Shown one piece after another: positions 6,562 to 64,000 of a DNA stretch of 64,000 nucleotides. Position numbers and translations under genes: made by a program. Origin of the DNA: Candidatus Woesearchaeota archaeon (GTDB lineage: Archaea > Nanobdellota > Nanobdellia > Woesearchaeales > B72-G16); the NCBI GenBank assembly GCA_003650545.1, contig QMQO01000002.1, positions 16,485 through 80,484 of the forward strand, given 5' to 3'. The notes below the pieces were generated by a model, which saw nothing but the letters and a program-made list of their open reading frames with translations, was not told the DNA's origin and ran no database searches. The first letter of the stretch is position 1, and each line of letters starts with the position of its first letter.

Positions 6562-6689
6562 ATATCAATCAATGTAAACTTGCTTTATATAGTTCACGTC
6601 TAGATGTCCAGTGTCCAGTGCCAACACCTTTAAAAATATATTAAAAATATATACTTCCAGACACAGTTTATATACATTCTATAATTTAA

Positions 6690-6859: not shown

Positions 6860-6986
6860 TAGATATTTATTATATACTTATAGACATTTATTATAATAGA
6901 TATTTATTATATACTTGTAGATATTTATTATAATAGATATTTATTATATACTTATAGACATTTATTATAATAGATATTTATTATAG
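6860..6986. repeat. tandem repeat, about 3.4 x 37 bp (tagatatttattatatacttatagacatttattataa), each unit built of two about 18-bp half-repeats
   Basis: Read directly. Nearly perfect copies with 1-2 substitutions. Confidence 0.85.
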
Positions 6987-13445: not shown

Positions 13446-14069
13446 TTACAACCCTCCTGCAATTGCTTGAGCAATTAAGTTCGTTAAAACATTTAATGGG
13501 ACTTGTCTCAAAAAATCTCTTCCTTTTTGTTTAAGTTCATTCAATAAAGCATTTATTTTAGATTTCTGGATGTTGTCTTTTTTTGTCTCTTCTTCTATCT
13601 CTTTTATTATCCTTTTTATTTGCTCTTTATTTTGAAAATTATTTTTATCTAAAATATTATGAACATCACTAAATGAGGTTATGGTGATATTCATTTGATT
13701 AAGATTTTGATTTAAGTTGGTGTTTGTTATATTTATGTTAGGAACAGGAGAGTCTATATTTACTTCTTTATTTTTATCAAATTTTCCTAATTCATAATTA
13801 TCCTTTATTATTTGAATACCACCTAAACAAGATTCTATATCTCTGTCATAAAAAGCAAATTCTTCAGCAGGTGCGAAATAAAATGGATAAAAAATACCTT
13901 GAAAAAGTTTTTTTATTTCTTGTTCTGAATAAAGTTCTACAATTATACTTTTAATTTTTCCTCGTATCGCATACATTAAATCTTGATTTTCTTTTGAAGG
14001 TCTATTTTTTATTTCATTAAGTTGATTTTCATAATCTTCAAGTTTGGATATTACTTTTTGAATATCCAT
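13446..14069 (-). CDS. hypothetical Asn/Lys-rich coiled-coil protein inserted between mod and res
   Basis: Start refined to MDIQKVISKL with a ggaggt SD 8 nt upstream. The mod stop TAA is 1 nt before this ATG. The gene abuts the res start. Confidence 0.5.
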   Translation of the reverse strand: MDIQKVISKLEDYENQLNEIKNRPSKENQDLMYAIRGKIKSIIVELYSEQEIKKLFQGIFYPFYFAPAEEFAFYDRDIESCLGGIQIIKDNYELGKFDKNKEVNIDSPVPNINITNTNLNQNLNQMNITITSFSDVHNILDKNNFQNKEQIKRIIKEIEEETKKDNIQKSKINALLNELKQKGRDFLRQVPLNVLTNLIAQAIAGGL

Positions 14070-14070
14070 T

Positions 14071-19688: not shown

Positions 19689-19956
19689 ATAATATGGTTA
19701 AAACTACCCCTTTATAAATGTTTCGTCATTAGAAAGTAGTTATGACGGATTTTCAAAAAAGCGTCATAATGTCGCTGAAGAGTAAATAAGCCGAAAAGCC
19801 CGAATTTCAGGGTTTCAGGCTCTAAAACGCTAATTCTGAAAAAATGAGATGAAACAAGGCAATTTGACAACTTTCAGGAAAATCCACGAATTTTGGCCTT
19901 GATTTCTGGTGGAGAAGGGGAAGCCGAATCGATTGAGTTTGAGGAGGTGAACCCCA

Positions 19957-51572: not shown

Positions 51573-51704
51573 TTTTTTGTCAAGTCCAAAAAGGTGCTGA
51601 AGTGCTGAAATAGACGATATTTTGCGTTTCAGAGTTTTTGTATTGCTTGTACTTGACACGCAGACGAAAACTATTTATAAAAGCTGGAGATATTTCTGAT
51701 AAGG

Positions 51705-52757
51705 ATGCCTCTTTTCCGCGATATGCTTCACGCAGATGAATCTCTGCTCAAAAATGAACAAGTGCTTGACTTCGACTATCAACCGAAATTGGTTAAGTAT
51801 AGGGAAAGTCAACAGTTTGCAATAGCTGACTGTATGAAACCCTTGTTCAACAAGCGTGATGGCGATAACGTTCTTGTTTATGGCACATCTGGAATTGGCA
51901 AGACACTTGCTTGCAAGCATATTCTTCAAGAGTTGGAACAAGAAACTGACGCTATAATACCCATTTATGTGAATTGCTGGGAGCACAACACGACATATAA
52001 GATAGCCTTAAACATCTGCGAGCAATTGCAGTATCCTTTCACTCCAAACAAGAAAGGAGTTGAGTTATTCCAAAAGATTGCTGAAAGGCTCAACAAGAAA
52101 AGCGCCGTTTTTGTTTTTGATGAAATTGACAAGGCAGAAGACTTTGATTTCCTATATTTCATCAGCGAGAAAATATTCAGGAATTCCATTGTGCTGATCA
52201 CAAACTTCAAGAGCAAGCTTTTTTCTATGGACAAGAGGCTCAGATCAAGGTTGTTCTTGGAGTTTGTGGAATTCAATAAATACACCTTTGAGGAAACGAG
52301 AGGCATCCTGCAGGAAAGGGTGGATTATGCGTTCTTCAAGGATGTTTGGACAAAAGAGGCATTCGATCTCGCAGTCCAGAAGACATTTGAGATGGGAGAC
52401 ATACGTTGCGGCTTGCTCATCCTTAGGAAGGCCGGAAAATTGGCAGAAAACGAGTCAAGCAGGAGCATTGAGGTGAACCACGTTGAGAAAATCCTTGACA
52501 AAGTTGACAAGTATGCCGTCAAGGGAAGTTCTGACCTAGATGGTGAGACCAGGAACATCCTTCATTTGATAAGGGACAATAGCGGATCAACAATATTTGA
52601 CGTTTTTAAGATGTATCAGAAGAAGAAAGGAAAACTCGTGTACAGGAGTTTTTATAGAAAGGTCAAGCACTTGGAACTCAACAAATACGTGCGCATAAAG
52701 AAAATTTATGGGGGTAAGAAAGGGAACACTTCAATAGTTGAATATTTAGGACTTTAG
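51705..52757 (+). CDS. Orc1/Cdc6 AAA+ replication initiator
   Basis: Walker A LVYGTSGIGKTLACKHI, Walker B VFVFDEID, and a C-terminal winged-helix region. TATA tttataaa lies about 30 nt upstream. Confidence 0.8.
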   Translation: MPLFRDMLHADESLLKNEQVLDFDYQPKLVKYRESQQFAIADCMKPLFNKRDGDNVLVYGTSGIGKTLACKHILQELEQETDAIIPIYVNCWEHNTTYKIALNICEQLQYPFTPNKKGVELFQKIAERLNKKSAVFVFDEIDKAEDFDFLYFISEKIFRNSIVLITNFKSKLFSMDKRLRSRLFLEFVEFNKYTFEETRGILQERVDYAFFKDVWTKEAFDLAVQKTFEMGDIRCGLLILRKAGKLAENESSRSIEVNHVEKILDKVDKYAVKGSSDLDGETRNILHLIRDNSGSTIFDVFKMYQKKKGKLVYRSFYRKVKHLELNKYVRIKKIYGGKKGNTSIVEYLGL

Positions 52758-53551
52758 GAATCTTCAGTTTCCTGTTCATATTCGTGGCACGGGCATTTCT
52801 CTTTTAATTGCTTACAAAGATAACCTTCATTTTGAGGATAATCTTTAATATCATCGGATTTAGTTTTTTCAAAGACCTTTTTGCATTGTTCTTCTGCGTA
52901 TTTTAGCATAGCGTCATCCACAGAGATTAAATGAAGCCTTTCTTTTAAGAAATAAATACCTACTTTGTCTGGTTTCCTGCCGTATTTTTTTTCGTATAGC
53001 AAAGCATATATTGCCAGCTGTAACTTGTATTCTTTGGTTATCTCAAATTTTGACGAGGTTTTATAATCTATTATTCTAATTTCGCCATTCACGTTTTCAA
53101 TTGCATCTATAAATCCTTTGGTGTCATATTCTTCAAGATAACATTCATCTTCGGTTATAGGTTTGAGTTTATTAAAGGCGCTTTGAAAATTATCGCCTGT
53201 CTGTTCAATGCGTTTTAAGAAATCTTGAAGCCAATGATTCAGCATATCCCAACATTCTTCATAATGTTCTTTGAGTTCTTCTTTAGACATTCTTAATTTT
53301 GCTATCTCATTTTTCTTCCCGTTCCATGCTCTCATAAACATCTTTTTCAAAGTTTTAGCAGCCCAAAACTGATAATTTTTTTCAAATAAGGGAGGTTCTT
53401 CTGAAAAAAAACTTTCTAATGCCTTGTGCACAACATTCCCTTTTATGAATATTATATTAGGACGGGCTTCTCTTTTTTCTTTGTAAATATGATAGTATAA
53501 TCTTGGACATTGATTGTAGATAATTATGCTTGTTGGTGAGTTTCGCGCCAT
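52754..53551 (-). CDS. Cas4-like PD-(D/E)XK nuclease with 4-Cys Fe-S cluster ligands, stand-alone
   Basis: N-terminal QCPRLYYHIY, then GFIDAIE, IIDYKTS, QLAIYALL (RecB motifs), and C-terminal CKQLKEKCPCHEY. Confidence 0.7.
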   Translation of the reverse strand: MARNSPTSIIIYNQCPRLYYHIYKEKREARPNIIFIKGNVVHKALESFFSEEPPLFEKNYQFWAAKTLKKMFMRAWNGKKNEIAKLRMSKEELKEHYEECWDMLNHWLQDFLKRIEQTGDNFQSAFNKLKPITEDECYLEEYDTKGFIDAIENVNGEIRIIDYKTSSKFEITKEYKLQLAIYALLYEKKYGRKPDKVGIYFLKERLHLISVDDAMLKYAEEQCKKVFEKTKSDDIKDYPQNEGYLCKQLKEKCPCHEYEQETEDS

Positions 53552-53669
53552 ATCTTTTATTAAACTCTTTTTATTTAAAAAAGTTCTGAAAAATAGTCTA
53601 ATTTCAACTAAAACTGTTTAGTGAAAATCAGGGGAATATTTATAAATGTCCAGTGATTATTAGTAAAGT

Positions 53670-54419
53670 ATGGCAAAGATTGTAATATCTTCACTATTCA
53701 CATACGATCCTTTAGTTTGCGGTTTCCAGTCAGGGAGAGATCTTTCTGAAACAGATTATAACGAATTAAATCCTTCTGAAGAAATCGACTTGGATATTGC
53801 TAGAGCAGTACATCATAGATTAAGCAAGAGAGTTATAAAAGAATTGGTCGATTCAGTTATGCTGTGCGTTATGAAAAAAGAGATTGATAATCTTATTCTG
53901 CTAATGGACAACCGAACAGATCCTCTTCAAGAAGAAGCCCTCAAAATTTTGCAAAGCAGAATAGGGGATAGCGCTCAAATAGAAATAATTCGAGTGAATG
54001 GGAATGATACTTTATCAGTTGCGCGTGAAGTAGTTAATTCAATTGATTCATTTGATCCAAAGACAGATGAAATAAGAATTAACATATCTTCTTTAAAACA
54101 TACAAAAACTCTGGGAATGATTTATGGATCATATGTAAGATCTGAAAAGGTCAAAGAAATAATGTATGTTGAAAAAGAAGACAGAAGAGTTGTTAATATC
54201 CCAAAACTCTCTTTAACTCTAACAAAAAACCAAAGAAAAATTTTGCAATATTTTAAAGATTTAGAATGCGGGAAAATAGAAAAACCTAAGAAAAAGTTGT
54301 ATGACTTATTTAAAGTTGACAAATCCTCTTTCTATTACATAATCAACCTTTTGAAAGACAAAGGGCTCCTTGATGATGGCAATAAATTAACAGATATGGG
54401 GGAAGTTGCTTTATTGTAA
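53670..54419 (+). CDS. winged-HTH transcriptional regulator (C-terminal MarR-like wHTH; N-terminal region possibly a Rossmann-like sensor domain, Csa3-like architecture)
   Basis: C-terminal KNQRKILQYFKDLECGKIEKPKKKLYDLFKVDKSSFYYIINLLKDKGLL. The gene A start lies 2 nt after its stop. TATA atttataaat lies about 27 nt upstream. Confidence 0.4.
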   Translation: MAKIVISSLFTYDPLVCGFQSGRDLSETDYNELNPSEEIDLDIARAVHHRLSKRVIKELVDSVMLCVMKKEIDNLILLMDNRTDPLQEEALKILQSRIGDSAQIEIIRVNGNDTLSVAREVVNSIDSFDPKTDEIRINISSLKHTKTLGMIYGSYVRSEKVKEIMYVEKEDRRVVNIPKLSLTLTKNQRKILQYFKDLECGKIEKPKKKLYDLFKVDKSSFYYIINLLKDKGLLDDGNKLTDMGEVALL

Positions 54420-54421
54420 AA

Positions 54422-56896
54422 ATGGAAAAAAACAAAAACTGGGTTGAGGAAAATTTAGAAGATATTGAATGCGTGCTTTGCTGGAGTTCTGACAGCGACA
54501 TCCTCAATCATAATGGAACGCACATAATTTTCCATACAGTTGACAGAACAATACTTTTTCTGGAAGAAGCTCTAATAAATCACGAAAAAAATGGGGTGCT
54601 CGTTTATCCAGTAACCAAAACAGAAGTTACAGTGCCTATGTGTGTGGAAGCTTTATATTCATTGATGAAAAATAAAACTGTAAGAAAAAAAGTTCTTCTT
54701 ATCAGCCAGAATATTGCGGTAAGAGAATTATACTGGCAGCTTAAAGTAAACTATTTGAGACTTAATGAAGTTTTTCCATTGGGAATAATAAAGATGGATG
54801 GAACAGTTAAGCCTCAACTGAAAACATCAGACGTTTCAAGGATCTCTGATGTTCAATGTTCTTTTTTGCATACAAGCAATCCGAAATTCATGCCAAATGA
54901 AGATATTGCTAAAGAAATAGGGTGCATAATTGTTGATGCTGCAGGTTACGATAAAAACTTGCTCAAAGAAATCATAGAATGGTCTGAAAAAAACGGAGTG
55001 CTGTCATTAATCATCCTAGAGAGCAACCCTTACTCTGAAAATTTTGATCTTTTCAAATCTTACGGGATTCCTGTTTGGGGGTGGGATAGCAATAGCCTAA
55101 GCGCTGATTTTGAGAATGATCTTGAAGAGTTAGAAAAAAACCCGCAAAAATATTACAATCCTTTTTCTCTGTCAGTGTTTCATATTCGCAATTGGCTGAA
55201 AGGCATAAAACGAGAATTTATAGAAGTTAAAGATGAGGAAATAACAAACGCCCTTAACGAAGCTTTGCAATTATATTTTGATATAAAAAAGCTTTGCAAA
55301 AATACAAAAAACGAGGCGCTTTCAAGAGCTCTGATTACTTATCTGTCATGCAAATATGCTTTTGAAAGGATGCTTGCGCCTTTAGAAATTACTGAAAATG
55401 AATGCAAAATGACTTTCCTTGCTAAGACGATAGAGAAAAGAATAGAAAATTTAGAATATTGGCAAAACATTCTTTCAACACAAGACCCTTATTTTGGCAG
55501 CTTCTGGGGAAAGACCTACAGTTTAATAAAAGTTTTATATCAAAAATTCATTTCAAGAGGAAATCCTAAATACGAACAAATAAAAAAGATCATCAAAGAA
55601 TCGATAAACAACAACGAAAAAATTTTAATCTTCAATTATAGCGAGCCTTATGCTAGGGCTTTGAAAACCGCTTTAGAAAAAGATTTTGCCTTATCTGATG
55701 AAGAACTTCAAGAAAAAGGAATTTTTATCACAAGCATAAATGAAAGGCATGTTGAAGCGGATTATGATAAATGCATTATTTTTGGCCAAATGCCTTTTCG
55801 GGCTTCTTGGTTATTAAGAACTGCTTGCGCTCATAAAGTTATTTTCTTGGTTTATCCCTCAGAAAAAGCATTATTAAAGTATCAATTTGAGAGCGAAGAA
55901 AAAAAATTCACAGATTCTTTTGGAAGAGGCACCAGGATTAATTTTCTTAAAAGGATATTGAAAAAAGAAGACCTTAAAAGATTGCCCCCGCCTCCAAAGC
56001 CCGGGGCTCAAAACGTTTTCTCTTTAAAGCTCGATGAGAAACAGATTAAGGACGAAGAGAAATTAAAACCTCTCTTGTCTGACATAGAAATAGATGATGA
56101 GCTAATATTAGAAGAAGAAATAGATTTTGAAGATGAAAATGAGCTTGAAGAAACATCAATAAATGAAGAGGGAAAAGTCGTTGTCAAATGTTGTAAGATT
56201 GTTTTGGAAGATGGCGGAGTAATGTACGTCAGACCTTCCCGGAAGATACCAATATTTAAAAACGGAAAAAGGCTGGAGTATGTAAGCGTACAAAAAGCGC
56301 GAGAAGGAGATTTGTTAATAGTGGTCAAAAACAACATAAAGAACAGTTTAGCTCAAGAAATAATAAAAAAAGCGGACAATCACCCCAGCATGCAGAAATT
56401 AAAGTTTCTTGTGAATTCCTGGGTCGTTGCTTTAAGGAAAGGCATGGCAGAGCATAATGACAGCGTTCATAAATTCTTGGAAAAATTGCAAGCAGAACAA
56501 AAGAAAGAGAATTCGCCAGTAATAACTAATTGGCTGACAATACAATTATGGAAAGAAGGATTGGTCATAGGACCTCAAAATTCTAAAAACATTAAATTCA
56601 TAGGAAAGATATACAATCAGCAATATCTTGTGGATCATTATAGGGAAATTGGCGCAGCAATAAGCAGGTTAAGAGGAATACACCATAGGTTGCTGAGAAA
56701 ATTAAATGACATGGTTTTAAGAGCAGGATTAAAAAGCATTAGCGGCTCCATCCAAGATGAATTAATTGACGAAGAATTTAATTTATACGTCGAAGATTTT
56801 GCTGATATAATCTCGATAGAGAAAATAAAATCGATATCCTTGAATGAATCTGCTGAAAGGTCAAAATTAGATAAAATAATGAGGTATGAAAAATGA
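54422..56896 (+). CDS. large uncharacterised protein (824 aa), gene A of candidate defence operon
   Basis: No recognisable catalytic motif. Internal PPPPKPG linker and acidic stretch separate two regions. ATGA-coupled to the helicase gene. Confidence 0.5.
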   Translation: MEKNKNWVEENLEDIECVLCWSSDSDILNHNGTHIIFHTVDRTILFLEEALINHEKNGVLVYPVTKTEVTVPMCVEALYSLMKNKTVRKKVLLISQNIAVRELYWQLKVNYLRLNEVFPLGIIKMDGTVKPQLKTSDVSRISDVQCSFLHTSNPKFMPNEDIAKEIGCIIVDAAGYDKNLLKEIIEWSEKNGVLSLIILESNPYSENFDLFKSYGIPVWGWDSNSLSADFENDLEELEKNPQKYYNPFSLSVFHIRNWLKGIKREFIEVKDEEITNALNEALQLYFDIKKLCKNTKNEALSRALITYLSCKYAFERMLAPLEITENECKMTFLAKTIEKRIENLEYWQNILSTQDPYFGSFWGKTYSLIKVLYQKFISRGNPKYEQIKKIIKESINNNEKILIFNYSEPYARALKTALEKDFALSDEELQEKGIFITSINERHVEADYDKCIIFGQMPFRASWLLRTACAHKVIFLVYPSEKALLKYQFESEEKKFTDSFGRGTRINFLKRILKKEDLKRLPPPPKPGAQNVFSLKLDEKQIKDEEKLKPLLSDIEIDDELILEEEIDFEDENELEETSINEEGKVVVKCCKIVLEDGGVMYVRPSRKIPIFKNGKRLEYVSVQKAREGDLLIVVKNNIKNSLAQEIIKKADNHPSMQKLKFLVNSWVVALRKGMAEHNDSVHKFLEKLQAEQKKENSPVITNWLTIQLWKEGLVIGPQNSKNIKFIGKIYNQQYLVDHYREIGAAISRLRGIHHRLLRKLNDMVLRAGLKSISGSIQDELIDEEFNLYVEDFADIISIEKIKSISLNESAERSKLDKIMRYEK

Positions 56897-59800
56897 CAAT
56901 AGATAATAATTTAAGAAGAAAATTTGTAAAACATGTTTACAAAAAATTAAAGGAAAGATTAAGCGGTTCGGGTTGCGATAGAGTTTATGGGGATAAACCG
57001 CAAATCAAATTTTTTGTTGGATCATTGTGCAGTCAAGATCCGAAGAGTTCTTTAGGCAGCATAAGAACAAAAGTTGCGCCCGTTAGAATGGGAGTGGAGT
57101 TTCTTTTAAACAAAGACGATGTGGCAAATGCAACTTTGAAGATTAAACCAAAAGCATCCGTCTTTTTTAAAGTGATCCCCGATTATGAAGAACAACTTGA
57201 AGCAGCTGTAAAAAAGAGCAAACTTTCAAGAGAAGAATTCATTAAAGAAGTAGAGAAACAAAAAAAATTAGCTGAAGAAGGCAAAGAAGATATAAACTTA
57301 GGCATCAAACCGCTTACAGTTTTCAAAAAGCATAAAATAAAAGATGCTTTGTTGACTTGCAAAATTTCTGAAGTTGTAGAAAAAGATTTTGAGGGAGAAT
57401 TTGAACTTCCTGGCGTGAAAGAACTTGTAGAAGACGCGCACAATGCTTACAAATCAGAGGAAAGATTATACCGTCCGAAAAAAAGAAAAAAAGATGAGAT
57501 GGAATCTAAAATACCTCTTTCTGTTCTCTCATCTGAAGAAGATTATTACAAATTCATGAGCGAATGGGGAGAAAAAGATGTTTATCCTTCATGGGATTTC
57601 AAAGTTGTTGTAAAAACAACAGAGTTTAATGACTCTCAAATAAAAGTGAGCGTTCTATTCGAAAATACTTGCGTAGCAAAGGAAAATGATCATATTGACA
57701 ATTTTCTCTTTGACACGCATCTTGACGTTGAAGTGGAGGGTGCTGACATCCAGAATTTTATAATCGATTATCTTAATGATCATTACAAATACAATGGAGA
57801 TATGGGCGCCAGCGGAATAAATTGCGAAGCCAAAAGAACAGGCAACAAAATCGTAACGGAACACATGCCTTTTTTTGAACAACTCAGGCTTAAAACTAAT
57901 GACAGATTAAAAGCAAAGTTTGAAGATTTAGCCTCAGACAGAGCTGTTGAAGTGCTGGAAAAAATAGCAAAAGAAATGAGGAGATATCTTGAAGAAGAAT
58001 ACAAACGTTTTGGAAAAGAAGCTGTTTTCAAATCAGAGATAGGCAAGAAAAGATTTGAGGAAGATATGAATGCTTTTGAAGATGAGATAAAGAGATTCGA
58101 GTATGGAATTGAAATTCTCAAAAAATATCCTTTAGCCATGAAAGCATTTAAAAAAATGAATTTGAGTTTTTTAAATTCTAGCAAGAGCAAAGCGTCTGAC
58201 AAGAAATATGATTCATGGAGAATATTTCAAATAATCTTTATCGTAATGAATGTGCCCGATGTCGTTTCAACCGAATATCCTGAGGTCAAATCAAATTTTG
58301 AAAGAGTTGAAGTCCTTTATTTTCCAACAGGCGGAGGAAAAACAGAAACCTATCTTGGGCTTGCAATATTCACTTTATTCTTTGATAGATTAAGAGGCAA
58401 GAAATTTGGCGTGTCAGTTATGACAAAATTTCCACTTAGGCTTCTTTCTCTTCAACAAATTCAAAGAATAGCGAATATCTTAGCGCAAGCAGAACTTATT
58501 AGGAGAGAAGATCCGGAAACAAACAGTGAGGGTTCTGAAGAATTCTCACTAGGATACTTTGTTGGAGATAGAAACACGCCTAATAAACTCATGAGCAAAG
58601 GAACAATATTCGGCGGGCAAGATAAGGATCTTCTTACTCCGATAGTAACTGAAAGAAATCAGATTCTAAAAGGAGAACTTAAATTAGATGATGAGAATTT
58701 AGAAGGTAGAAAATACCTCATTATCTCAAAATGTCCCTTTTGCGGAAGTAAAGAGATAATGATTGATGCAGATGTTGAAAAGATAAGGCTAATGCATAGG
58801 TGTATGAATAAAGAATGCCAAGAAGATGTTTTGCCAATTTACGTCTCTGATATGGAAATTTACAGATATCTCCCTTCTTTCATTATTTCAACTTTGGACA
58901 AGATCGCCATATGCGGGCTTCAGAAGAACTTTAGAAATCTATTCGGACAAGTAACCCATAAATGCCCTCTCCACGGATACAGCAATTCTTCTGAGTGCAC
59001 TGAAAAATGGTTATGCAAAGCAGACAAAGAGAAATTTGAAAAAGTAACACCTTATGATCCTGTTCCAACGCTCCAAATACAAGACGAAATGCATTTAGTA
59101 AGAGAGTCCTTAGGAACTTTTAACTCTCATTATGAAAGCTTTTTAGAACACTATGAGAAAATGCTTACTAAAGGGAAACGCAGCATGAAAATACTAACCG
59201 CAACTGCAACTATATCCGAATATAAGATGCAAACAGATCATCTATATGCTAAAGATGCGTGCCAGTATCCTTCTCAAGGACCAAAGATCTCTGAGTCTTT
59301 TTATGCTTCTGTGGACAATGATGATTTAAATAGACTCATAATAGGGATAACTCCTCACTTCAAAACGATGATATTTTCTGTTCTTGACGTAATCGAAACA
59401 TATCATGAGTTGATTCAAAGATGGCATTCCAATCCTCAAGAATTAATTGCTGAGTTAGGCGTAGAAGTAACTAATGAAGAAATTAAGGAAATGCTAAAAG
59501 ACTATATGATAAAATTATCTTATCATCTTGCAAAAAGCGACGGAGATAGCATATCAAACTCAATAAGGACTATGACAAATAGGTCTTTGAGAGAAAAAGG
59601 GATACCAGAAATAAAACAAAGCCCGCTTACGGGGGACGTATCCTTCAATGATGTGAGGATAGTCCTTGATAAAATTGAGAATCCTAAAACAGAGGAAGAC
59701 ATGGTTGATTTAATTATTGCCACTAGCATGATATCTCACGGGGTGGATATCGACGCCCTAAACTTCATGGTATTCATGGGAATGCCTCATAATACTGCAG

Positions 59801-60408
59801 AATACATCCAAGCTAGCAGTAGAGTAGGAAGGAAATACCCTGGCATTGCAATTGTAATATTTAACCCGACCAGAGAAAGAGATCAAAGTTATTTCAAATT
59901 TTTTACAAAATTCCATGAATATAAAGATTTGCTAGTGGAAGCAGTTCCGATTAACAGGTGGGCTAAATTTAGCATAAACAGAACTGTGCCGGGCATATTT
60001 AGCGCCTCAGTTTTAAATTATTTTGATGCCATTGCAAGCCCCCAACTAAAAGGCAAATCTTTAAACATGAGCAAGGTTTTTGAAAAGGCCATTGATGAAG
60101 GAATTATCAATGAAGAGGAAATAAAGCAGTTTCTTCTTGAAAGTTACAAAGTGAACAAGGATACTATTGGATTTGGTTTTGATAAAGTTATAGAGGATAA
60201 AACAGAAACATATATCCATGAGATTACTCAAACTTTAGGAAACGAGTTTATTACAAGACCCATGTCCGATAAACCTATGACAAGTCTGAGAGATGTTGAC
60301 ACGCTCATAGACATTAATCTGTCACCCGACGGGATGATGATTTTGAAGAACATAAAAGCAAGCAGAACTCCTGTCTTTGATGAAGAAGAAAATGAGGAGG
60401 ATGAATAA
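56893..60408 (+). CDS. SF2 DExH-box helicase (1171 aa) with about 480-aa N-terminal extension and embedded zinc ribbon
   Basis: Motif I YFPTGGGKTETYLG, motif II LQIQDEMHL, motif III ILTATATIS, motif VI QASSRVGRKYPG. CPFCGSK...HRCMNKECQ is inserted between motifs I and II. Confidence 0.75.
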   Translation: MTIDNNLRRKFVKHVYKKLKERLSGSGCDRVYGDKPQIKFFVGSLCSQDPKSSLGSIRTKVAPVRMGVEFLLNKDDVANATLKIKPKASVFFKVIPDYEEQLEAAVKKSKLSREEFIKEVEKQKKLAEEGKEDINLGIKPLTVFKKHKIKDALLTCKISEVVEKDFEGEFELPGVKELVEDAHNAYKSEERLYRPKKRKKDEMESKIPLSVLSSEEDYYKFMSEWGEKDVYPSWDFKVVVKTTEFNDSQIKVSVLFENTCVAKENDHIDNFLFDTHLDVEVEGADIQNFIIDYLNDHYKYNGDMGASGINCEAKRTGNKIVTEHMPFFEQLRLKTNDRLKAKFEDLASDRAVEVLEKIAKEMRRYLEEEYKRFGKEAVFKSEIGKKRFEEDMNAFEDEIKRFEYGIEILKKYPLAMKAFKKMNLSFLNSSKSKASDKKYDSWRIFQIIFIVMNVPDVVSTEYPEVKSNFERVEVLYFPTGGGKTETYLGLAIFTLFFDRLRGKKFGVSVMTKFPLRLLSLQQIQRIANILAQAELIRREDPETNSEGSEEFSLGYFVGDRNTPNKLMSKGTIFGGQDKDLLTPIVTERNQILKGELKLDDENLEGRKYLIISKCPFCGSKEIMIDADVEKIRLMHRCMNKECQEDVLPIYVSDMEIYRYLPSFIISTLDKIAICGLQKNFRNLFGQVTHKCPLHGYSNSSECTEKWLCKADKEKFEKVTPYDPVPTLQIQDEMHLVRESLGTFNSHYESFLEHYEKMLTKGKRSMKILTATATISEYKMQTDHLYAKDACQYPSQGPKISESFYASVDNDDLNRLIIGITPHFKTMIFSVLDVIETYHELIQRWHSNPQELIAELGVEVTNEEIKEMLKDYMIKLSYHLAKSDGDSISNSIRTMTNRSLREKGIPEIKQSPLTGDVSFNDVRIVLDKIENPKTEEDMVDLIIATSMISHGVDIDALNFMVFMGMPHNTAEYIQASSRVGRKYPGIAIVIFNPTRERDQSYFKFFTKFHEYKDLLVEAVPINRWAKFSINRTVPGIFSASVLNYFDAIASPQLKGKSLNMSKVFEKAIDEGIINEEEIKQFLLESYKVNKDTIGFGFDKVIEDKTETYIHEITQTLGNEFITRPMSDKPMTSLRDVDTLIDINLSPDGMMILKNIKASRTPVFDEEENEEDE

Positions 60409-60409
60409 G

Positions 60410-62287
60410 ATGATGAGAAGAGGTAAAAATCAAGTTCTTTTTAAATTTCTTCCAGGAAAACCCATAGATTATAATCAAGGGAATGCAATTGCTCTGGTTG
60501 AGAGGTGGTTCAGTCATAAAGTTGATGATGTTAATAAAACAAGGATCATAAAGGAAGTCTATAATGCTATAAGATCATTTAAGTCAAAAAGAGGATATCC
60601 TAGAATTGCAAGTCCAGATTCCTTTGAATTGTTATCTCCTGTATTTGTAGAAGCCGAGTTATTCCCATTGACTTTTATTTGCGATTCATGTAGCAGAGCT
60701 TACAGTTTTGGTTCTGTGCAACAACTTAACAGAGTGTTAAGAAAACACAAATGTATTTCTTGCGGTGGGAAATTAACGCAAATGGATCTGGTATATACCC
60801 ATGAATGCGGGCATTTATGGGCTCCGAAAATTGCGCCATGCAAAGAACACGGATTTGAAAAAATCATTCTTAATAAACATGGCAGTAATTCTCCAAAAGA
60901 TTGGCGTTGGGAGTGCGGAATATGCAAGAGGGAAACATCCTCCTTAAACAGTTGGTGCCCTGCTTGCAAAGGAACATCAAATTCTCAAATTTGCTATCCA
61001 AAACCATTCAGGCAAACAAGCGTTTTCACACCGCATTCATTAACTCTTGTCAATCTTCAAAATTTGAATGAAGATAGGATTTACGAAGATGATATCTTCA
61101 AAAAGTTGATATTAGCCAAATACATGGATTTGTTTAAGAAGCATAATTCAACTTTTCAAGAATGTTTAGATGTTTCTCCGAAAGACGATAATAAGCTTGA
61201 TCAATTGATTAAGGAGCTCAAAGCGAAAAATATGTCCGAAGAGATGATAAATCAAGTTCTGGAATCAATGAACAAGGTTAATCCGAACAAGAAAGGCGTT
61301 AGGGATGCTATAATCAAAGAGGTTGAAACATTGATTTCACCTCCAGAAGGAGATATGTCTGGTGTAGCCTTAAAAGCATATGAATTTATGGAGACTTTAG
61401 ATTCTTCTGCTTCAGTTCATATAAAAAGGATTGTAGAAAGTTCAGAGAGAAAGAACCATCCTAAAATAGAACAAATAAGAAAATTTCCTAAAAAATTAGA
61501 AGAAATCGGAATTAAAAATGCATATGTGCTTAATGATCTCTCCATAGTTAAGTTAGTCTACGGTTACACAAGGGGCGCTCCTGACAATAAATCAAATGAG
61601 GATAAAAGGACTTTGAATAGATTTGCTACTGATAAATCAACTGACCAAGGAAAAACCCCCATTTATCTTAATAAAGCAAATACTGAAGCGATTTTATTAG
61701 AATTTGATAGATGGAAGATTCTGACCTGGTTAAAAGAAAATGGTGTGATAGATGAGGTCCCTTCTAAAGATGATGAAGCGGCATTAAAGGCTTGGTTTCT
61801 GAACAATGTGCAAACAGACAGAATCTCTCCTTTTAGAGAGATTGATCCGCAACTTAAAAAAACAAAAATGGTATATAAACTTCTGCATTCTATAAGTCAT
61901 GCTCTATTGACGACTTGTTCTGTTGAGTGCGGAATGGATAAAAATTCTCTGGCAGAACTTATCTTCCCATCCATTCCTGCGATAATCATTTATTGTAGCA
62001 ACGTTCAAGAGTTCCAAATCGGCGGGATGTTCACTTTATTTGAGAATAATATAATCCCATGGGTTGAGAAAACACTCACCAAAGTTGGAAGTTGTATATA
62101 TGATCCTGTTTGCATGGATCATCAATCAGCTTGCCATGCTTGTTTGCATTTAAGCGAGATTTCTTGCGTACATTTCAATTATGATCTTGGAAGGGATATT
62201 TTAATTGGAAAGAAAAATAGCAATGAAGAAATAATCGGTTTTTGGAGTAAAAAATTCCTTAGAAAGGTCAATGTTGAAAATGGTTGA
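60410..62287 (+). CDS. multi-zinc-finger protein (636 aa), possibly DUF1998/MZB-like
   Basis: Cys clusters CDSCSRAY...HKCISCGG, HECGH...CKEH, WECGICKRETSSLNSWCPACKG, and C-terminal CIYDPVCMDHQSACHACLHLSEISC. A gaggagga SD lies before the ATG at 60410. Confidence 0.5.
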   Translation: MMRRGKNQVLFKFLPGKPIDYNQGNAIALVERWFSHKVDDVNKTRIIKEVYNAIRSFKSKRGYPRIASPDSFELLSPVFVEAELFPLTFICDSCSRAYSFGSVQQLNRVLRKHKCISCGGKLTQMDLVYTHECGHLWAPKIAPCKEHGFEKIILNKHGSNSPKDWRWECGICKRETSSLNSWCPACKGTSNSQICYPKPFRQTSVFTPHSLTLVNLQNLNEDRIYEDDIFKKLILAKYMDLFKKHNSTFQECLDVSPKDDNKLDQLIKELKAKNMSEEMINQVLESMNKVNPNKKGVRDAIIKEVETLISPPEGDMSGVALKAYEFMETLDSSASVHIKRIVESSERKNHPKIEQIRKFPKKLEEIGIKNAYVLNDLSIVKLVYGYTRGAPDNKSNEDKRTLNRFATDKSTDQGKTPIYLNKANTEAILLEFDRWKILTWLKENGVIDEVPSKDDEAALKAWFLNNVQTDRISPFREIDPQLKKTKMVYKLLHSISHALLTTCSVECGMDKNSLAELIFPSIPAIIIYCSNVQEFQIGGMFTLFENNIIPWVEKTLTKVGSCIYDPVCMDHQSACHACLHLSEISCVHFNYDLGRDILIGKKNSNEEIIGFWSKKFLRKVNVENG

Positions 62288-62684
62288 TGTATTCAGCAAA
62301 GAGAAAAGAAGCTGGATTATGTCCAGAATAAGATCGAAAAACAGTAAATTAGAAGTGTCTTTCAGAAAAATTCTTTGGCGTGAAGGCTTTCGATACAGAG
62401 TTCATTATAAGAAGCTGCCTGGCAAACCAGATATCGTTTTTACAAAACAAAAAGTCGCTGTCTTCATCGATAGTCATTTTTGGCATGGTTACGACTGGGA
62501 AAAGAAAAAGAAAAAACTAAAAAGCGAATATTGGCAATGGAAAATTCCATACAATATGGAACGTGACAAGAGGGTTAATAAAGAATTAAAAAAAATGGGC
62601 TGGAAAGTCTTGAGGTTCTGGGAGCATGAAATCAAAAAAAATCCTTACGCATGCATAGATAAGATTAGGAAAGCTCTTCTCTAA
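62280..62684 (+). CDS. vsr: very-short-patch-repair endonuclease
   Basis: IMSRIRSKNSKLEVSFRKILWREGFRYRVHYKKLPGKPDIVFTKQKVAVFIDSHFWHG is the canonical Vsr signature. Its start overlaps the end of the zinc-finger gene. Confidence 0.85.
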   Translation: MVDVFSKEKRSWIMSRIRSKNSKLEVSFRKILWREGFRYRVHYKKLPGKPDIVFTKQKVAVFIDSHFWHGYDWEKKKKKLKSEYWQWKIPYNMERDKRVNKELKKMGWKVLRFWEHEIKKNPYACIDKIRKALL

Positions 62685-63801
62685 TTTTATCTAACATAGA
62701 TTTGTTTAATCTCCCATGAGATATTAGCCTAAGTTCTCTTAAGAAATTTATTATATCCATTCCGCTAATCAATTTAATTGGATAACTGTCTTCAAATAAC
62801 TCTTCTTGTGCTTGTATTGAAAAATATGATGTTGTAATAAATAACCCATACTCCCCCCTATTCAGCTTGGCAGCTAATCTTGAGAGGTCTTTCGGACCGA
62901 CAGCGTTATTAGGTCCGAATTTTTTGGCTTCGCCTTTAAAGAATATTGTATAATTTAGAGGATAAGGCAGTGTGAAATGGCCAAAAAAGTCGAATCCTTT
63001 ATCTTTTACAAATCGAGTATTCATAATAGAATGTTTTATCCCTTTTATGCTTTCAATGAGATAAACTGTAAACCTTTCGAACTCTTTGGGTTTTAACCTA
63101 TGAATCTCTTCCAGAATTTTATACTCTGAAGAATTCTTAGCAGGAAGCTGTTCTTCTTTTGATTTAATATTCTTTCTCCATACTTTCAAATAAGCTGGTT
63201 TTTTCCCAGAAGTATAATCATTCCAGATTTTAGGAGGCGTATATTTCTCTCCTTTGACTTTTTTATGAATCCAATCTAAATCTACTGAATCAATGTCTAA
63301 TATTTGAAGAACGGCTCTATAATTTCTCACTGGTTTGCCTTTATCTTCAAACCAGGTTCGTTCAAGATTCTCCATAACGCATAAGCCTTCAAATATAATC
63401 TTCCCTCTTTCAGGTTTTGAGAAAAACAATATTGGAGGAATTTCTTTTAAGTTTCCTTCTAAAATCTTATCATGAACTTTTTTCAATATTTTGTTTCCCA
63501 TGAAGTCTTCGCATTTGCGTTTTTGATCGGCTTTTGCATCACCCCAATAATAAATAACTCCGTTGTTTCTATCTATCACGTCTTCCCAAGGATTATGATA
63601 AGAACTCGAAGCTGTTTTTGTAATCAAAATCAGTGCGGCTGGCAATTCTTTTTTATCTTTATAACGCAACCACCTAATCCCTGGTGAATTCATCATTCCA
63701 GAAACTCCAGGTATATTAATCCAGCGCATAAACTGATCTTCTTCAAAGTTGGGGTTGCCTTTGTCTACATATTCTTTTCCAATCTCAAAAATACGCTTCA
63801 T
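62665..63801 (-). CDS. restriction endonuclease with C-terminal Mrr-cat-like PD-(D/E)XK domain, probable Type II partner of adjacent C5-MTase
   Basis: C-terminal FVKDKGFDFFGHF...IFFKGEAKKF...GLFITTSYFSIQA (D...ExK plus the liTTs.Ft..A motif). Its start lies 9 nt downstream of the methyltransferase stop. Confidence 0.55.
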   Translation of the reverse strand: MKRIFEIGKEYVDKGNPNFEEDQFMRWINIPGVSGMMNSPGIRWLRYKDKKELPAALILITKTASSSYHNPWEDVIDRNNGVIYYWGDAKADQKRKCEDFMGNKILKKVHDKILEGNLKEIPPILFFSKPERGKIIFEGLCVMENLERTWFEDKGKPVRNYRAVLQILDIDSVDLDWIHKKVKGEKYTPPKIWNDYTSGKKPAYLKVWRKNIKSKEEQLPAKNSSEYKILEEIHRLKPKEFERFTVYLIESIKGIKHSIMNTRFVKDKGFDFFGHFTLPYPLNYTIFFKGEAKKFGPNNAVGPKDLSRLAAKLNRGEYGLFITTSYFSIQAQEELFEDSYPIKLISGMDIINFLRELRLISHGRLNKSMLDKIREELS

Positions 63802-63809
63802 GATCCTGG

Positions 63810-64000
63810 ATTAATAATATTCTTTTAATATATGCTTTGCTATCCTTTCTGCTAATGCTGGAGGGACCGCATTCGCAATTTGCTGCGATACTGCTTCTAA
63901 TGTTCCTTCAAACACAAAATTATGAGGGAAAGTATGCAATGTAGCCTTCTCTCTGTTCGTAAGATATCTGTCTTCATCGGGATGGATGATATAATTATTT
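63810..64000 (-). CDS. DNA cytosine-5 methyltransferase, C-terminal fragment (continues beyond window)
   Basis: Minus-strand translation ends ...RYLTNREKATLHTFPHNFVFEGTLEAVSQQIANAVPPALAERIAKHILKEYY, which gives C5-MTase motifs IX-X. Confidence 0.65.

What the first reader, a model, noticed from the sequence alone, without database searches (positions are those of the whole stretch)
53670..64000. Candidate undescribed defence operon: wHTH regulator, 824-aa unknown, DExH helicase with zinc ribbon, multi-zinc-finger protein and Vsr, convergent with REase and C5-MTase
Five co-directional genes are joined by ATGA or 2-nt junctions and preceded by a single TATA box at 53638, so they form one transcription unit. 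The regulator has a MarR-like wHTH. The 824-aa protein has no recognisable motif. The 1171-aa SF2 helicase has an unusually large N-terminal extension and a CxxC...CxxxC zinc ribbon inserted into its RecA1 domain. The 636-aa protein carries at least four Cys/His clusters. Vsr is translationally coupled to the zinc-finger gene rather than to the methyltransferase. The operon converges on a C5-cytosine methyltransferase and a Mrr-cat-type endonuclease. Helicase plus Cys-rich protein plus 5mC methyltransferase, with an upstream large unknown gene, parallels class-2 DISARM (DrmE-DrmA-DrmB-DrmMII). However no PLD nuclease is present, and a PD-(D/E)XK REase plus Vsr appear instead. The locus is either a divergent DISARM variant or an undescribed helicase-based system. 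It sits next to an Orc1/Cdc6 gene and a Cas4-like nuclease at the provirus border, a typical defence-island location.
Basis: partly seen in the sequence, partly recalled or inferred. Interest (0 to 1): 0.85.

Follow-up and report, generated by a model that had tools for sequence, protein, structure and literature searches.

The report
DISARM defence cassette in archaeal provirus
This stretch is a recognisable class 2 DISARM anti-virus system (lacking only its dispensable PLD nuclease) plus a mismatch-repair nuclease, a methylcytosine-dependent restriction enzyme and a cytosine methylase, carried as cargo inside an integrated tailed virus of a Woesearchaeales archaeon. This same locus was already annotated that way in a 2024 paper, so it is not an undescribed system.

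Summary
The gene layout is real, but the system is not undescribed. Profile searches identify the 824-aa protein as DrmE, the 1171-aa helicase as DrmA and the Cys-rich protein as DrmB. Together with the convergent C5-methyltransferase they form class 2 DISARM without DrmC; no PLD gene lies within 10 kb either side.

The "REase" is an AspBHI/MspJI-family 5mC-dependent enzyme. The MTase, Vsr and MspJI-type trio is a published neighbourhood. The "MarR-like" regulator is a CARF + winged-helix protein of the Csa3/Crn1 type.

Gene coordinates match, base for base, provirus QMQO01000002_pro (a Woesearchaeales tailed provirus) in PMC11705971. That paper reports class 2 DISARM there, and its supplement lists Csa3, DrmE, DrmA, DrmB, Vsr, AspBHI and Dcm. 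The locus therefore lies inside the provirus, about 11 kb from its right end, not at its border.

One thing appears new. In related proviruses the same Orc1/Cdc6 then CARF-wHTH pair precedes quite different defence cargo: Dnd/Pbe, GmrSD with type IIG R-M, or DrmD-like with type III R-M. The CARF-wHTH thus leads a variable defence hotspot and is not DISARM-specific. A conserved TGTCCAGTG box sits at its promoter.

The predicted DrmE fold is an SF2 helicase without a conserved Walker A motif.

Verdict: a known system and an ordinary finding, with a modest regulatory lead.

The parts
51705..52757 (+). Orc1/Cdc6-type AAA+ initiator of the provirus. It forms the conserved left flank of the defence-cargo hotspot.
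   Evidence: NCBIfam ORC1-type 2e-58 (below the curated cut-off); Pfam AAA_22 and Cdc6_lid. Relatives at 62-78% identity occur in related proviruses. A plateau of about 50-54% identity matches more than 100 Woesearchaeota proteins. The paper's gene 38 'cdc6' has the same coordinates minus 19712.
52754..53551 (-). Cas4-like PD-(D/E)XK nuclease, transcribed divergently from the CARF/DISARM operon.
   Evidence: Pfam PDDEXK_1 3e-21; PADLOC Cas4 7e-14. Conserved next to CARF-DrmE in L003/4, L005 and L013/14.
53639..53646 (+). TATA box (TTTATAAA) of the CARF-DISARM operon, 23 nt before the ATG. This spacing suggests a leaderless or short-leader transcript.
   Evidence: TATA-like boxes align at the same position in L004, L005 and L013 and occur about 30 nt before the CARF ATG in L016-L018.
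53647..53655 (+). TGTCCAGTG box, a candidate operator or initiator element between the TATA box and the start codon.
   Evidence: The window has three exact copies, all in promoter regions. In the fetched loci, exact copies lie in CARF-gene promoters (L003/4 with two mirrored copies, L016 and L017 in inverted orientation), apart from one inside L005 DrmE.
53670..54419 (+). CARF + winged-helix protein (Csa3/Crn1-like, HFX_2341 family). It is the leader gene of the hotspot.
   Evidence: PADLOC CARF3 1e-37; Pfam HFX_2341_N 29.5 bits, just under the cut-off of 30. AF2 model pLDDT 84. Foldseek PDB top hits are Crn1 SSO1393/Sis0811 (1e-7) and Csa3 (1e-4). The paper's HHpred match is 2WTE_B at 99.89.
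54422..56896 (+). DrmE, the class 2 DISARM signature protein. The predicted fold is an SF2 helicase without a conserved Walker A, followed by the DrmE_C domain.
56893..60408 (+). DrmA, the DISARM SF2 DExH helicase.
   Evidence: PADLOC DrmA 1e-215 (residues 15-1104). PDB 7S9V_A DrmA 2.5e-61. Motifs I, II, III and VI are intact. The Zn ribbon is conserved family-wide.
60410..62287 (+). DrmB, the DUF1998/MZB zinc-binding partner of DrmA. Alternative start codons lie at 60377 (TTG) and 60413.
   Evidence: PADLOC DrmB 1e-94. Pfam MZB 24.3 bits (cut-off 24.2). NCBIfam DrmB_fam 5e-33, below cut-off.
62271..62684 (+). Vsr very-short-patch T:G mismatch endonuclease. It overlaps the end of drmB.
   Evidence: TIGR00632 129 bits (cut-off 97.85). 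Pfam Vsr 6e-29. A Vsr gene is also found beside DrmEAB in L004, L005, L008, L009 and L010.
62665..63801 (-). AspBHI/MspJI-family 5mC-dependent (type IIM/IV) restriction endonuclease. It is an exchangeable accessory.
   Evidence: Pfam RE_AspBHI_N 4e-40 plus Mrr_cat. PADLOC mREase_II 3e-51. PDB AspBHI 4OC8 4e-35 and MspJI 4F0P 3e-21. The EAK catalytic motif is present. The gene is absent or replaced in L004 and L005.
63811..64000 (-). C-terminal part of the C5-cytosine methyltransferase, the DrmMII candidate. The full gene runs to about 64827, beyond the window.
   Evidence: Translation shows motifs IX and X. The full 338-aa protein from L001 matches Pfam DNA_methylase at 8e-64, and motifs I, IV (PCQ), VI, VIII, IX and X are all present.

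Best explanation
Window 53,670-64,000 (continuing to about 64,830) is a DrmC-less class 2 DISARM cassette. Its core is DrmE, DrmA and DrmB, with a C5-cytosine methyltransferase acting as DrmMII. It sits as cargo in the accessory-gene hotspot of a 55-kb head-tailed provirus of a Woesearchaeales (DPANN) archaeon.

Inferred mechanism, by analogy with characterised DISARM:
- The methyltransferase marks the lysogen's DNA with 5mC.
- The DrmA-DrmB helicase/DUF1998 complex loads on incoming unmethylated DNA and blocks its replication. DrmE is probably a catalytically dead SF2-helicase-like scaffold.
- No dedicated PLD nuclease is needed, because DrmC is dispensable in the tested systems.
- Vsr repairs the T:G mismatches produced by deamination of the self-made 5mC.
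- The AspBHI-like enzyme is a separate, swappable arm that cuts invader DNA carrying 5mC in a different sequence context.

The first gene is not a DISARM part. It is a CARF-wHTH protein that heads this hotspot in related proviruses whatever the cargo. It most likely regulates or autoregulates the single TATA promoter through the adjacent TGTCCAGTG box.

Shown: family identities, intact motifs, operon structure, synteny and provirus location. Inferred: every biochemical activity, the regulator's target and any ligand.
For: - Family identity. PADLOC gives DrmE 2e-48, DrmA 1e-215 and DrmB 1e-94. NCBIfam DrmE_fam is above cut-off. Pfam DrmE_C and MZB are both above cut-off. DrmA matches PDB 7S9V_A at 2.5e-61.
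- The catalytic motifs of DrmA, the MTase and the REase are intact.
- No PLD gene is present.
- The same order, CARF-DrmE-A-B-Vsr with a convergent MTase, is found in relatives at 47-78% identity: L003/4, L005 and L013/14.
- Archaeal relatives in methanogens and a Halomicrobium plasmid have the canonical DrmE-A-B-DrmC. In L008 and L010 this is followed by MTase-Vsr.
- Publication. PMC11705971 names class 2 DISARM (DrmE, DrmA, DrmB, MTase_II) in the two Woesearchaeales proviruses. The supplementary gene table for QMQO01000002_pro matches window coordinates minus 19712 for genes 38-46.
- DrmC is reported as dispensable and often missing. The DrmAB mechanism and methylation sensing are described in PMC9142583.
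- The hotspot. Orc1 followed by a homologous CARF-wHTH (hhalign probability 99.7%, E 1e-25) precedes different defence cargo in L016, L017, L018 and QZIT01000006_pro.
- The MTase/Vsr/MspJI-type neighbourhood is described in PMC2938202.
Against: - PADLOC's strict definition of type II DISARM requires DrmC, and the published PADLOC run filed these genes as 'DMS_other'.
- The methyltransferase scores better against generic type II MTase models (7e-96) than against DrmMII models (3e-48). It is convergent rather than co-oriented, so its assignment as DrmMII rests on conserved proximity only.
- A 5mC-dependent nuclease beside a 5mC methylase demands non-overlapping specificities, which could not be tested.
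- No experiment exists for any archaeal DISARM.
- The regulatory role of the CARF-wHTH is inferred from position and a short conserved motif.
- One related provirus (L019) lacks the CARF gene.
Confidence: 0.85

Rival explanations
1. Two or three independent systems lie side by side rather than one integrated system. On this reading there is a methylase-less DISARM core (DrmE/A/B) and a self-contained MspJI-type module (C5-MTase, Vsr, AspBHI-like nuclease) that happens to be adjacent in a defence hotspot.
For: - The founding MspJI locus is helicase-MspJI-Vsr-C5-MTase, and about half of the family sits beside a C5-MTase (PMC2938202).
- The MTase matches type II models best.
- The MTase and nuclease converge on the operon.
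- The nuclease slot varies between relatives.
Against: - The MTase and Vsr stay with DrmE/A/B in every Woesearchaeal relative even where the AspBHI-like gene is absent (L004, L005).
- In methanogens (L008, L010) MTase-Vsr follows DrmB or DrmC in the same direction.
- Vsr overlaps drmB by 17 nt.
Confidence: 0.25
2. The first gene is a virus-encoded Crn1-like ring nuclease, acting as an anti-type-III-CRISPR factor that degrades cyclic oligoadenylates. On this reading it is not a transcription regulator of the cargo, and its position ahead of DISARM is incidental.
For: - The best structural matches are Crn1 ring nucleases SSO1393 and Sis0811 (Foldseek E 1e-7, TM about 0.54), ahead of Csa3 (1e-4).
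- The gene is carried on a virus.
- No cas genes or CRISPR array occur in the window or the 10 kb beyond its end.
Against: - Crn1 and Csa3 share the same CARF + wHTH architecture, so the fold cannot discriminate between them.
- The gene abuts the first cargo gene by 0-4 nt in every relative.
- A conserved 9-mer sits at its own promoter, as expected for an autoregulated DNA-binding protein.
- HFX_2341, the family namesake, is a transcriptional repressor (PMC11434293).
Confidence: 0.15
3. The cassette is a decaying, non-functional DISARM remnant that lost its nuclease.
For: DrmC is absent within 10 kb either side. The closest archaeal relatives in methanogens and haloarchaea retain it.
Against: - All five ORFs are full length and their catalytic motifs are intact.
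- The DrmC-less arrangement is conserved across relatives down to about 50% protein identity without disruption.
- DrmC is reported dispensable for DISARM activity and often missing (PMC9142583).
Confidence: 0.07
4. This is an undescribed helicase-based defence system unrelated to DISARM.
For: None was found with tools.
Against: Full-length, high-scoring matches to the DrmE, DrmA and DrmB models and to the solved DrmA structure. The locus is also published.
Confidence: 0.01

Closest known systems
Class 2 DISARM (DrmE-DrmA-DrmB-DrmC-DrmMII; Ofir et al. 2018, as summarised in PMC9142583, PMC9252829 and PMC11529989)
   Same: DrmE, DrmA and DrmB are each matched by family models, in the canonical order and translationally coupled. 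A C5-cytosine methyltransferase is adjacent. The helicase and Zn-binding motifs are intact.
   Different: - There is no DrmC (PLD) gene.
- The methyltransferase is small (338 aa), convergent and type II-like.
- Vsr is fused into the operon.
- A CARF-wHTH gene leads the operon.
- The host is a DPANN archaeal provirus rather than a bacterial chromosome.
The published annotation of this very locus: Woesearchaeales tailed provirus QMQO01000002_pro (PMC11705971)
   Same: Gene order, lengths and coordinates are identical (offset 19712). The paper states class 2 DISARM (DrmE, DrmA, DrmB, MTase_II), and its supplement lists Csa3, DrmE_fam, DrmA, DrmB, Vsr, AspBHI and Dcm.
   Different: In the passages and supplement parts examined, the paper does not discuss the missing DrmC. 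It also does not mention the CARF-wHTH as a conserved leader of a variable hotspot, the promoter motif, or the fold of DrmE.
Archaeal class 2 DISARM in methanogens and haloarchaea (L008-L011; Halomicrobium urmianum plasmid NZ_CP084091.1)
   Same: DrmE-DrmA-DrmB are present, with DrmA 37-45% identical to the window's and the same Zn ribbon. MTase-Vsr follows in L008 and L010.
   Different: These loci keep DrmC (PLD, 294-299 aa) except L010. They lack the CARF-wHTH leader and Cas4-like neighbour. In L011 an HhH-GPD glycosylase replaces Vsr.
MspJI 'RM system' neighbourhood (helicase, MspJI, Vsr, C5-MTase; Zheng et al. 2010, PMC2938202)
   Same: A 5mC-dependent Mrr-like nuclease of the MspJI/AspBHI family lies beside a C5-MTase and Vsr, next to a helicase gene. 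The (Q/E)AK catalytic motif is present.
   Different: Here the nuclease is closest to AspBHI (4e-35). It is one interchangeable cassette in a provirus hotspot, and the helicase is demonstrably DrmA.
Csa3 / Crn1 / HFX_2341 CARF-wHTH proteins
   Same: A CARF Rossmann-like domain with a motif following the fourth strand (N-x-S-x-x-K-H-x-K here; D-x-T-x-x-R-K-x-K in the 199-aa relatives), plus a C-terminal winged helix. The structural matches are to these proteins.
   Different: It is not next to cas genes. It is encoded on a tailed provirus at the head of non-CRISPR defence cargo. The window clade has an insertion of about 50 residues after strand 1. Ligand and activity are unknown.

Membership tests
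Class 2 DISARM | DrmA: SF2 DExH helicase of the DrmA family | tested here: met
   PADLOC PDLC02576 1e-215 over residues 15-1104. PDB 7S9V_A 2.5e-61. Motifs GGGKT, DEMH, TAT and QASSRVGR are present. The NCBIfam DISARM_DrmAS score is 421 bits, below its strict equivalog cut-off of 950.
Class 2 DISARM | DrmB: DUF1998/MZB zinc-binding protein encoded directly after DrmA | tested here: met
   PADLOC DrmB 1e-94. Pfam MZB 24.3 bits against a cut-off of 24.2. The gap after drmA is 1 nt. NCBIfam DrmB_fam is below cut-off (114.7 against 240).
Class 2 DISARM | DrmE: the class 2 signature protein, encoded upstream of DrmA | tested here: met
   NCBIfam DrmE_fam 176 bits (cut-off 80). PADLOC DrmE 2e-48, full length. 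Pfam DrmE_C 78.7 bits (cut-off 27).
Class 2 DISARM | DrmMII: an associated C5-cytosine methyltransferase | tested here: inconclusive
   A complete C5-MTase with all catalytic motifs ends 1.1 kb from the operon and is conserved beside DrmEAB in relatives. However, it matches generic type II MTase models (7e-96) better than DrmMII models (3e-48). A functional link cannot be tested here.
Class 2 DISARM | DrmC: PLD-domain nuclease (required by PADLOC's type II definition; reported dispensable) | tested here: not met
   No PLD or DrmC match was found among the locus genes or the larger ORFs of the 10 kb beyond its end. The publication's annotation of the whole provirus lists none either. The published PADLOC call was 'DMS_other'. 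Methanogen relatives do have DrmC.
Class 2 DISARM | Protection against viruses, dependent on DrmA/DrmB and restrained by cognate methylation | not testable with these tools
   This needs expression and challenge experiments.
MspJI/AspBHI modification-dependent endonucleases | N-terminal AspBHI-type (SRA-like) 5mC-recognition domain plus a C-terminal Mrr_cat domain with the D...(Q/E)AK motif | tested here: met
   Pfam RE_AspBHI_N 138 bits and Mrr_cat 35 bits. PDB 4OC8 4e-35 over residues 45-357. EAK at residue 291.
MspJI/AspBHI modification-dependent endonucleases | Cleavage only of 5mC/5hmC-containing DNA | not testable with these tools
   This is a biochemical property.
Vsr very-short-patch repair endonuclease | Match to the Vsr family model above the curated threshold | tested here: met
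   TIGR00632 129.1 bits (cut-off 97.85). Pfam Vsr 100 bits.
CARF-wHTH proteins (Csa3/Crn1/HFX_2341) | CARF Rossmann-like fold followed by a winged helix-turn-helix | tested here: met
   PADLOC CARF3 1e-37 over residues 60-249. AF2 pLDDT 84. The top 7 Foldseek PDB hits are Crn1 and Csa3. Pfam HFX_2341_N scores 29.5 bits, just below the cut-off of 30, but it is above cut-off in the L004 homologue at 34.5.
CARF-wHTH proteins (Csa3/Crn1/HFX_2341) | Genomic association with type III CRISPR-Cas or another cyclic-oligonucleotide source | tested here: not met
   No cas genes, CRISPR array or Rfam CRISPR hit was found in the window or the 10 kb beyond its end. The rest of the host genome could not be examined.
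CARF-wHTH proteins (Csa3/Crn1/HFX_2341) | Binding or cleavage of cyclic oligoadenylate; DNA binding at target promoters | not testable with these tools
   There is only indirect evidence: a motif after strand 4 is conserved across both subfamilies, and a conserved 9-mer lies in the promoter.

The most novel reading that the evidence does not exclude
The CARF-wHTH protein may be a second-messenger-responsive master switch for a defence-cargo hotspot in tailed proviruses of DPANN archaea. In the lysogen it would hold the promoter (TATA plus the TGTCCAGTG box) in one state. On binding a cyclic oligonucleotide made during superinfection, it would switch expression of whatever cargo follows it: DISARM here, and Dnd/Pbe, GmrSD with type IIG R-M, or a DrmD-like helicase with type III R-M in relatives. 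The divergently transcribed Cas4-like nuclease might also be controlled, and it could stand in for the missing DrmC. This would couple nucleotide signalling to non-CRISPR innate defences carried by an archaeal virus.
Probability: 0.15. Interest if true: 0.6.

Novelty: already known. Interest (0 to 1): 0.25.

Why it matters
As a defence system it adds nothing categorically new. It is class 2 DISARM, and this same locus is already in the literature. Its value is as a corrected annotation and as an example of a temperate archaeal virus arming its DPANN host with a 5mC-centred package: a DISARM core, a methylase, deamination repair and a 5mC-dependent nuclease.

The modest new lead is organisational. 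A family of Woesearchaeales tailed proviruses has a fixed Orc1/Cdc6 plus CARF-wHTH "leader" followed by interchangeable defence cargo. This resembles the defence hotspots of temperate phages and their satellites in bacteria (from my own knowledge, not checked here), but with a CARF-type sensor at the head. If that sensor really gates cargo expression, it would be a testable link between nucleotide signalling and innate defence in archaeal viruses.

The prediction that DrmE is an SF2 helicase fold without a conserved Walker A also gives a structural handle on a DISARM component for which Pfam models only the C-terminal domain.

Tried and rejected
- Att sites. I looked for direct repeats between window 15-26 kb and 64-74 kb of the extended contig. 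Only 14-15-mers of chance quality appeared. No tRNA genes were found in the window or in L001.
- IMG/VR scans with the CARF and DrmE alignments found no relatives. tblastn of DrmA against 50,697 phage records gave no hit.
- Sequence-profile searches of the PDB with the CARF family (A1) and the DrmE family (A2) returned nothing at E up to 10. Only structure prediction and fold search were informative.
- The proteins that occupy the AspBHI slot in relatives (L004, 206 aa; L005, 162 aa) have no Pfam or PADLOC match. They show no similarity to DrmC, to AspBHI or to each other, so they remain unknown.
- I tested whether the window's Orc1/Cdc6 is related to the PF24389 'ORC-CDC6-like' proteins next to methanogen DISARM. 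It matches only at the P-loop. The methanogen CARF6-type protein is likewise not detectably related to the window's CARF-wHTH.
- The exact TTTATAAA count is not above chance (5 against 4.4 expected). The longer AAATRGTCYAGT pattern is also not significant.
- Ofir et al. 2018 and Makarova et al. 2020 are not held in the library. Their content is cited only through other papers.
- Two window proteins were not found by exact look-up.
- I did not try to predict methyltransferase specificity. The best solved relative is M.HaeIII at only 3e-31, so no call is justified.

Full report
**1. Observation**

- 53670-54419 (249 aa)
- 54422-56896 (824 aa)
- 56893-60408 (1171 aa)
- 60377/60410-62287 (636/625 aa)
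- 62271-62684 (137 aa)
- the convergent 62665-63801 (378 aa), followed by the tail of a further minus-strand gene

Gene junctions are +2, -4 (ATGA), +1 and -17 nt.

TTTATAAA lies at 53639-53646, 23 nt before the first ATG. The same spacing occurs before the Orc1/Cdc6 gene at 51674-51681. The number of exact TATA matches in the window is not above chance (5 against 4.4 expected). However, the box aligns with TATA-like boxes in three homologous loci, and no other exact copy lies inside the five-gene block. A single promoter and one transcription unit is therefore a reasonable but unproven reading.

**2. What the genes are**

PADLOC, Pfam and NCBIfam scans give unambiguous family assignments.

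| Gene | Identity | Main evidence |
|---|---|---|
| 824 aa | DrmE | PADLOC 2e-48 over the full length; NCBIfam DrmE_fam 176 bits, cut-off 80; Pfam DrmE_C |
| 1171 aa | DrmA | PADLOC 1e-215 over residues 15-1104; PDB 7S9V_A 2.5e-61 |
| Cys-rich, 625-636 aa | DrmB | PADLOC 1e-94; Pfam MZB/DUF1998 just above threshold |
| 137 aa | Vsr | TIGR00632 above cut-off |
| 378 aa, convergent | AspBHI_N + Mrr_cat | PDB AspBHI 4OC8 4e-35, MspJI 4F0P 3e-21 |
| Last gene | C5-methyltransferase | 338 aa on the parent contig, all six catalytic motifs present |

The 378-aa protein belongs to the MspJI/AspBHI family of 5mC-dependent endonucleases and is not a conventional R-M partner.

The helicase's N-terminal region and its CPxC...Cx4C ribbon are not unusual. 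The DrmA model spans them in one stretch, and the ribbon is conserved in DrmA from eight other loci, including methanogens, a haloarchaeal plasmid and a distant metagenomic locus.

The first gene is not MarR-like:
- It matches CARF3/CasR models (1e-37) and Pfam HFX_2341_N.
- Its AlphaFold model (pLDDT 84) matches the Crn1 ring nucleases SSO1393/Sis0811 and Csa3 as top solved structures.

No PLD/DrmC gene exists in the window or in the 10 kb beyond its end.

**3. The locus is already published**

The window is part of metagenomic contig ERZ1742239 NODE_110. Identical proteins carry NCBI names from a Candidatus Woesearchaeota MAG.

PMC11705971 (Microbiol Spectr 2024) describes two "Woesearchaeales tailed proviruses". 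It states that they carry class 2 DISARM (DrmE, DrmA, DrmB, MTase_II).

Its supplementary gene table for QMQO01000002_pro (55,455 bp) lists genes 38-46 as cdc6, exonuclease (Cas4 superfamily), CSA3 (2WTE_B, 99.89), DrmE_fam, DrmA (7S9V_A), DrmB (7S9V_B), Vsr, AspBHI (4OC8_A) and Dcm. Their coordinates equal the window coordinates minus 19,712 for every gene.

It follows that the provirus spans window 19,713 to about 75,167. This fits the portal, capsid and tape-measure genes at 28-44 kb and the composition shift near 20 kb. The DISARM block therefore lies inside the provirus, between the lysis genes and an integrase at about 67.2-68.1 kb, and not at its border.

PADLOC filed the genes there as "DMS_other". 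This is consistent with its rule that type II DISARM needs DrmC.

**4. Relatives**

Close relatives were recovered from metagenomes, with DrmE 47-78% identical. They keep the order Cas4-like (divergent), CARF-wHTH, DrmE, DrmA, DrmB, Vsr and a convergent C5-MTase.

The AspBHI-like gene is absent from them. In its place are unrelated small ORFs without family matches. It is therefore an exchangeable accessory, whereas MTase and Vsr travel with the core.

A scan of one genome per species found four methanogen loci:
- Three are DrmE-DrmA-DrmB-DrmC (PLD confirmed).
- L008 is followed by MTase-Vsr and L011 by an HhH-GPD glycosylase; in L009 Vsr lies upstream of drmE.
- The fourth, L010, lacks DrmC and is followed by MTase-Vsr.

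A Halomicrobium plasmid has DrmE-helicase-DUF1998-PLD as annotated by RefSeq.

The window's cassette is thus a DrmC-less derivative of an archaeal class 2 DISARM lineage in which T:G repair is a recurrent accessory. DrmC is reported as dispensable and often absent (PMC9142583).

**5. The CARF-wHTH belongs to the provirus hotspot, not to DISARM**

The sister provirus QZIT01000006_pro has cdc6, CSA3 and a PD-(D/E)XK exonuclease followed by Dnd/Pbe genes instead of DISARM.

I took Orc1/Cdc6 homologues at 62-78% identity and looked up their contigs. In each case the same tail module and Orc1 were present:

| Locus | Gene after Orc1 | Cargo that follows |
|---|---|---|
| L016 | 199-aa CARF-wHTH | GmrSD, UvrD-PDDEXK, RmuC |
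| L017 | 199-aa CARF-wHTH | GmrSD-like, Cas4-like, HKD-Snf2, type IIG R-M |
| L018 | 199-aa CARF-wHTH | DrmD-like SNF2 helicase, type III Mod and Res |
| L019 | no CARF gene | Eco57I-type (N6) methyltransferase with an S subunit |

The 199-aa proteins are homologous to the window's (hhalign 99.7%, E 1e-25, 35% identity). The window clade carries an insertion of about 50 residues. In every case the CARF gene abuts the first cargo gene by 0-4 nt.

The 9-mer TGTCCAGTG lies between the TATA box and the ATG in the window and in L003/L004. Its reverse complement lies in the same place in L016 and L017. Exact copies elsewhere in the fetched sequence are rare.

This points to a conserved, probably autoregulated promoter from which whatever cargo is present gets expressed. 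This step is inference.

**6. DrmE fold**

The position equivalent to Walker A (YPVTKTE) is not conserved among homologues. DrmE therefore looks like a helicase-derived, probably inactive scaffold. It is reminiscent of the SNF2-type DrmD in class 1. Confidence is at fold level only.

**7. Mechanism**

The following is by analogy with Serratia and Bacillus DISARM, as summarised:
- The methyltransferase marks resident DNA.
- DrmAB is activated by unmethylated DNA with single-stranded 5' ends and blocks invader replication.
- DrmE assists in an unknown way.
- Vsr offsets the mutagenic cost of 5mC.
- The AspBHI-like enzyme adds a second arm against 5mC-modified invaders. This requires a specificity that spares the resident methylation pattern, a puzzle already noted for MspJI.

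None of these activities was or could be tested here.

**8. Verdict**

The anatomy is real, and the DISARM analogy was correct gene for gene. The residual interest lies in the CARF-wHTH-led variable defence hotspot of this provirus family and in the DrmE fold. Both are computational leads of modest weight.

Noticed in passing
window 10851-16047 (- strand): A type III restriction-modification system lies in the host flank outside the provirus. It comprises Mod (14071-16047; TypeIII_RM_meth + N6_N4_Mtase) and Res (10851-13445; ResIII/DEAD + HI_1054), with small unknown ORFs between and after them.
   Followed up: partly
window 6605-6620, upstream of the integrase gene 5734-6561 (-): A tandem pair TGTCCAGTGTCCAGTG lies here. 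It is the same 9-mer as in the CARF/DISARM promoter, about 45-60 nt upstream of a host-side tyrosine integrase gene. These are the only other exact copies in the window. They may mark a shared regulator or a second mobile element.
   Followed up: partly
window 6860-6985: A 37-nt AT-rich tandem repeat (3.4 copies, 95% matches) lies in the intergenic region next to the same integrase. It could be an iteron- or att-like feature. It was not examined further.
   Followed up: no
L008:14804-16223, L010:19752-22451, L011:11875-14728 (methanogen loci): Three methanogen class 2 DISARM loci are each followed, on the opposite strand, by a conserved pair. One member is a 'CARF6'-type protein (PADLOC 5e-43 in L011; the others are homologous at 1e-14 and 3e-10). 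The other is a Pfam PF24389 ORC-CDC6-like ATPase. The pairing echoes the Orc1/Cdc6 + CARF-wHTH flank in the window, but no sequence relationship was detected.
   Followed up: partly
L006:1804-13156 (JGI metagenome Ga0369713_1001619): This is a distant class 2 DISARM variant. It has DrmE, a C5-MTase and an HhH-GPD glycosylase facing DrmA-DrmB. A NERD-UvrD helicase (PADLOC RTasNERD-Hel 1e-69) occupies the place where DrmC usually sits. It suggests that both the nuclease slot and the T:G-repair slot are interchangeable.
   Followed up: partly
window 19711-19718 and 51674-51681: One exact TTTATAAA copy sits at the published left boundary of the provirus (19713). Another lies 23 nt before the Orc1/Cdc6 ATG, the same spacing as at the CARF gene. 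The Orc1 promoter also shares a GCACTTGACA box with L016-L018.
   Followed up: no
L001:1-9000 (window about 64.8-73.8 kb, beyond the window end): The right part of the provirus holds a second set of mobile-element-like genes: a tyrosine integrase, a HARE-HTH protein, an 870-aa N6/N4 methyltransferase and a putative endonuclease. According to the paper, a second XerA-type integrase lies at the provirus end. This may be a nested element.
   Followed up: no
P0001 (DrmE, 99% identical): The near-identical DrmE in NCBI is labelled 'Candidatus Schekmanbacteria bacterium'. Every other marker, including Orc1/Cdc6 and the identical proteins P0012/P0018, points to Woesearchaeota. This is probably a mis-binned contig.
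   Followed up: no
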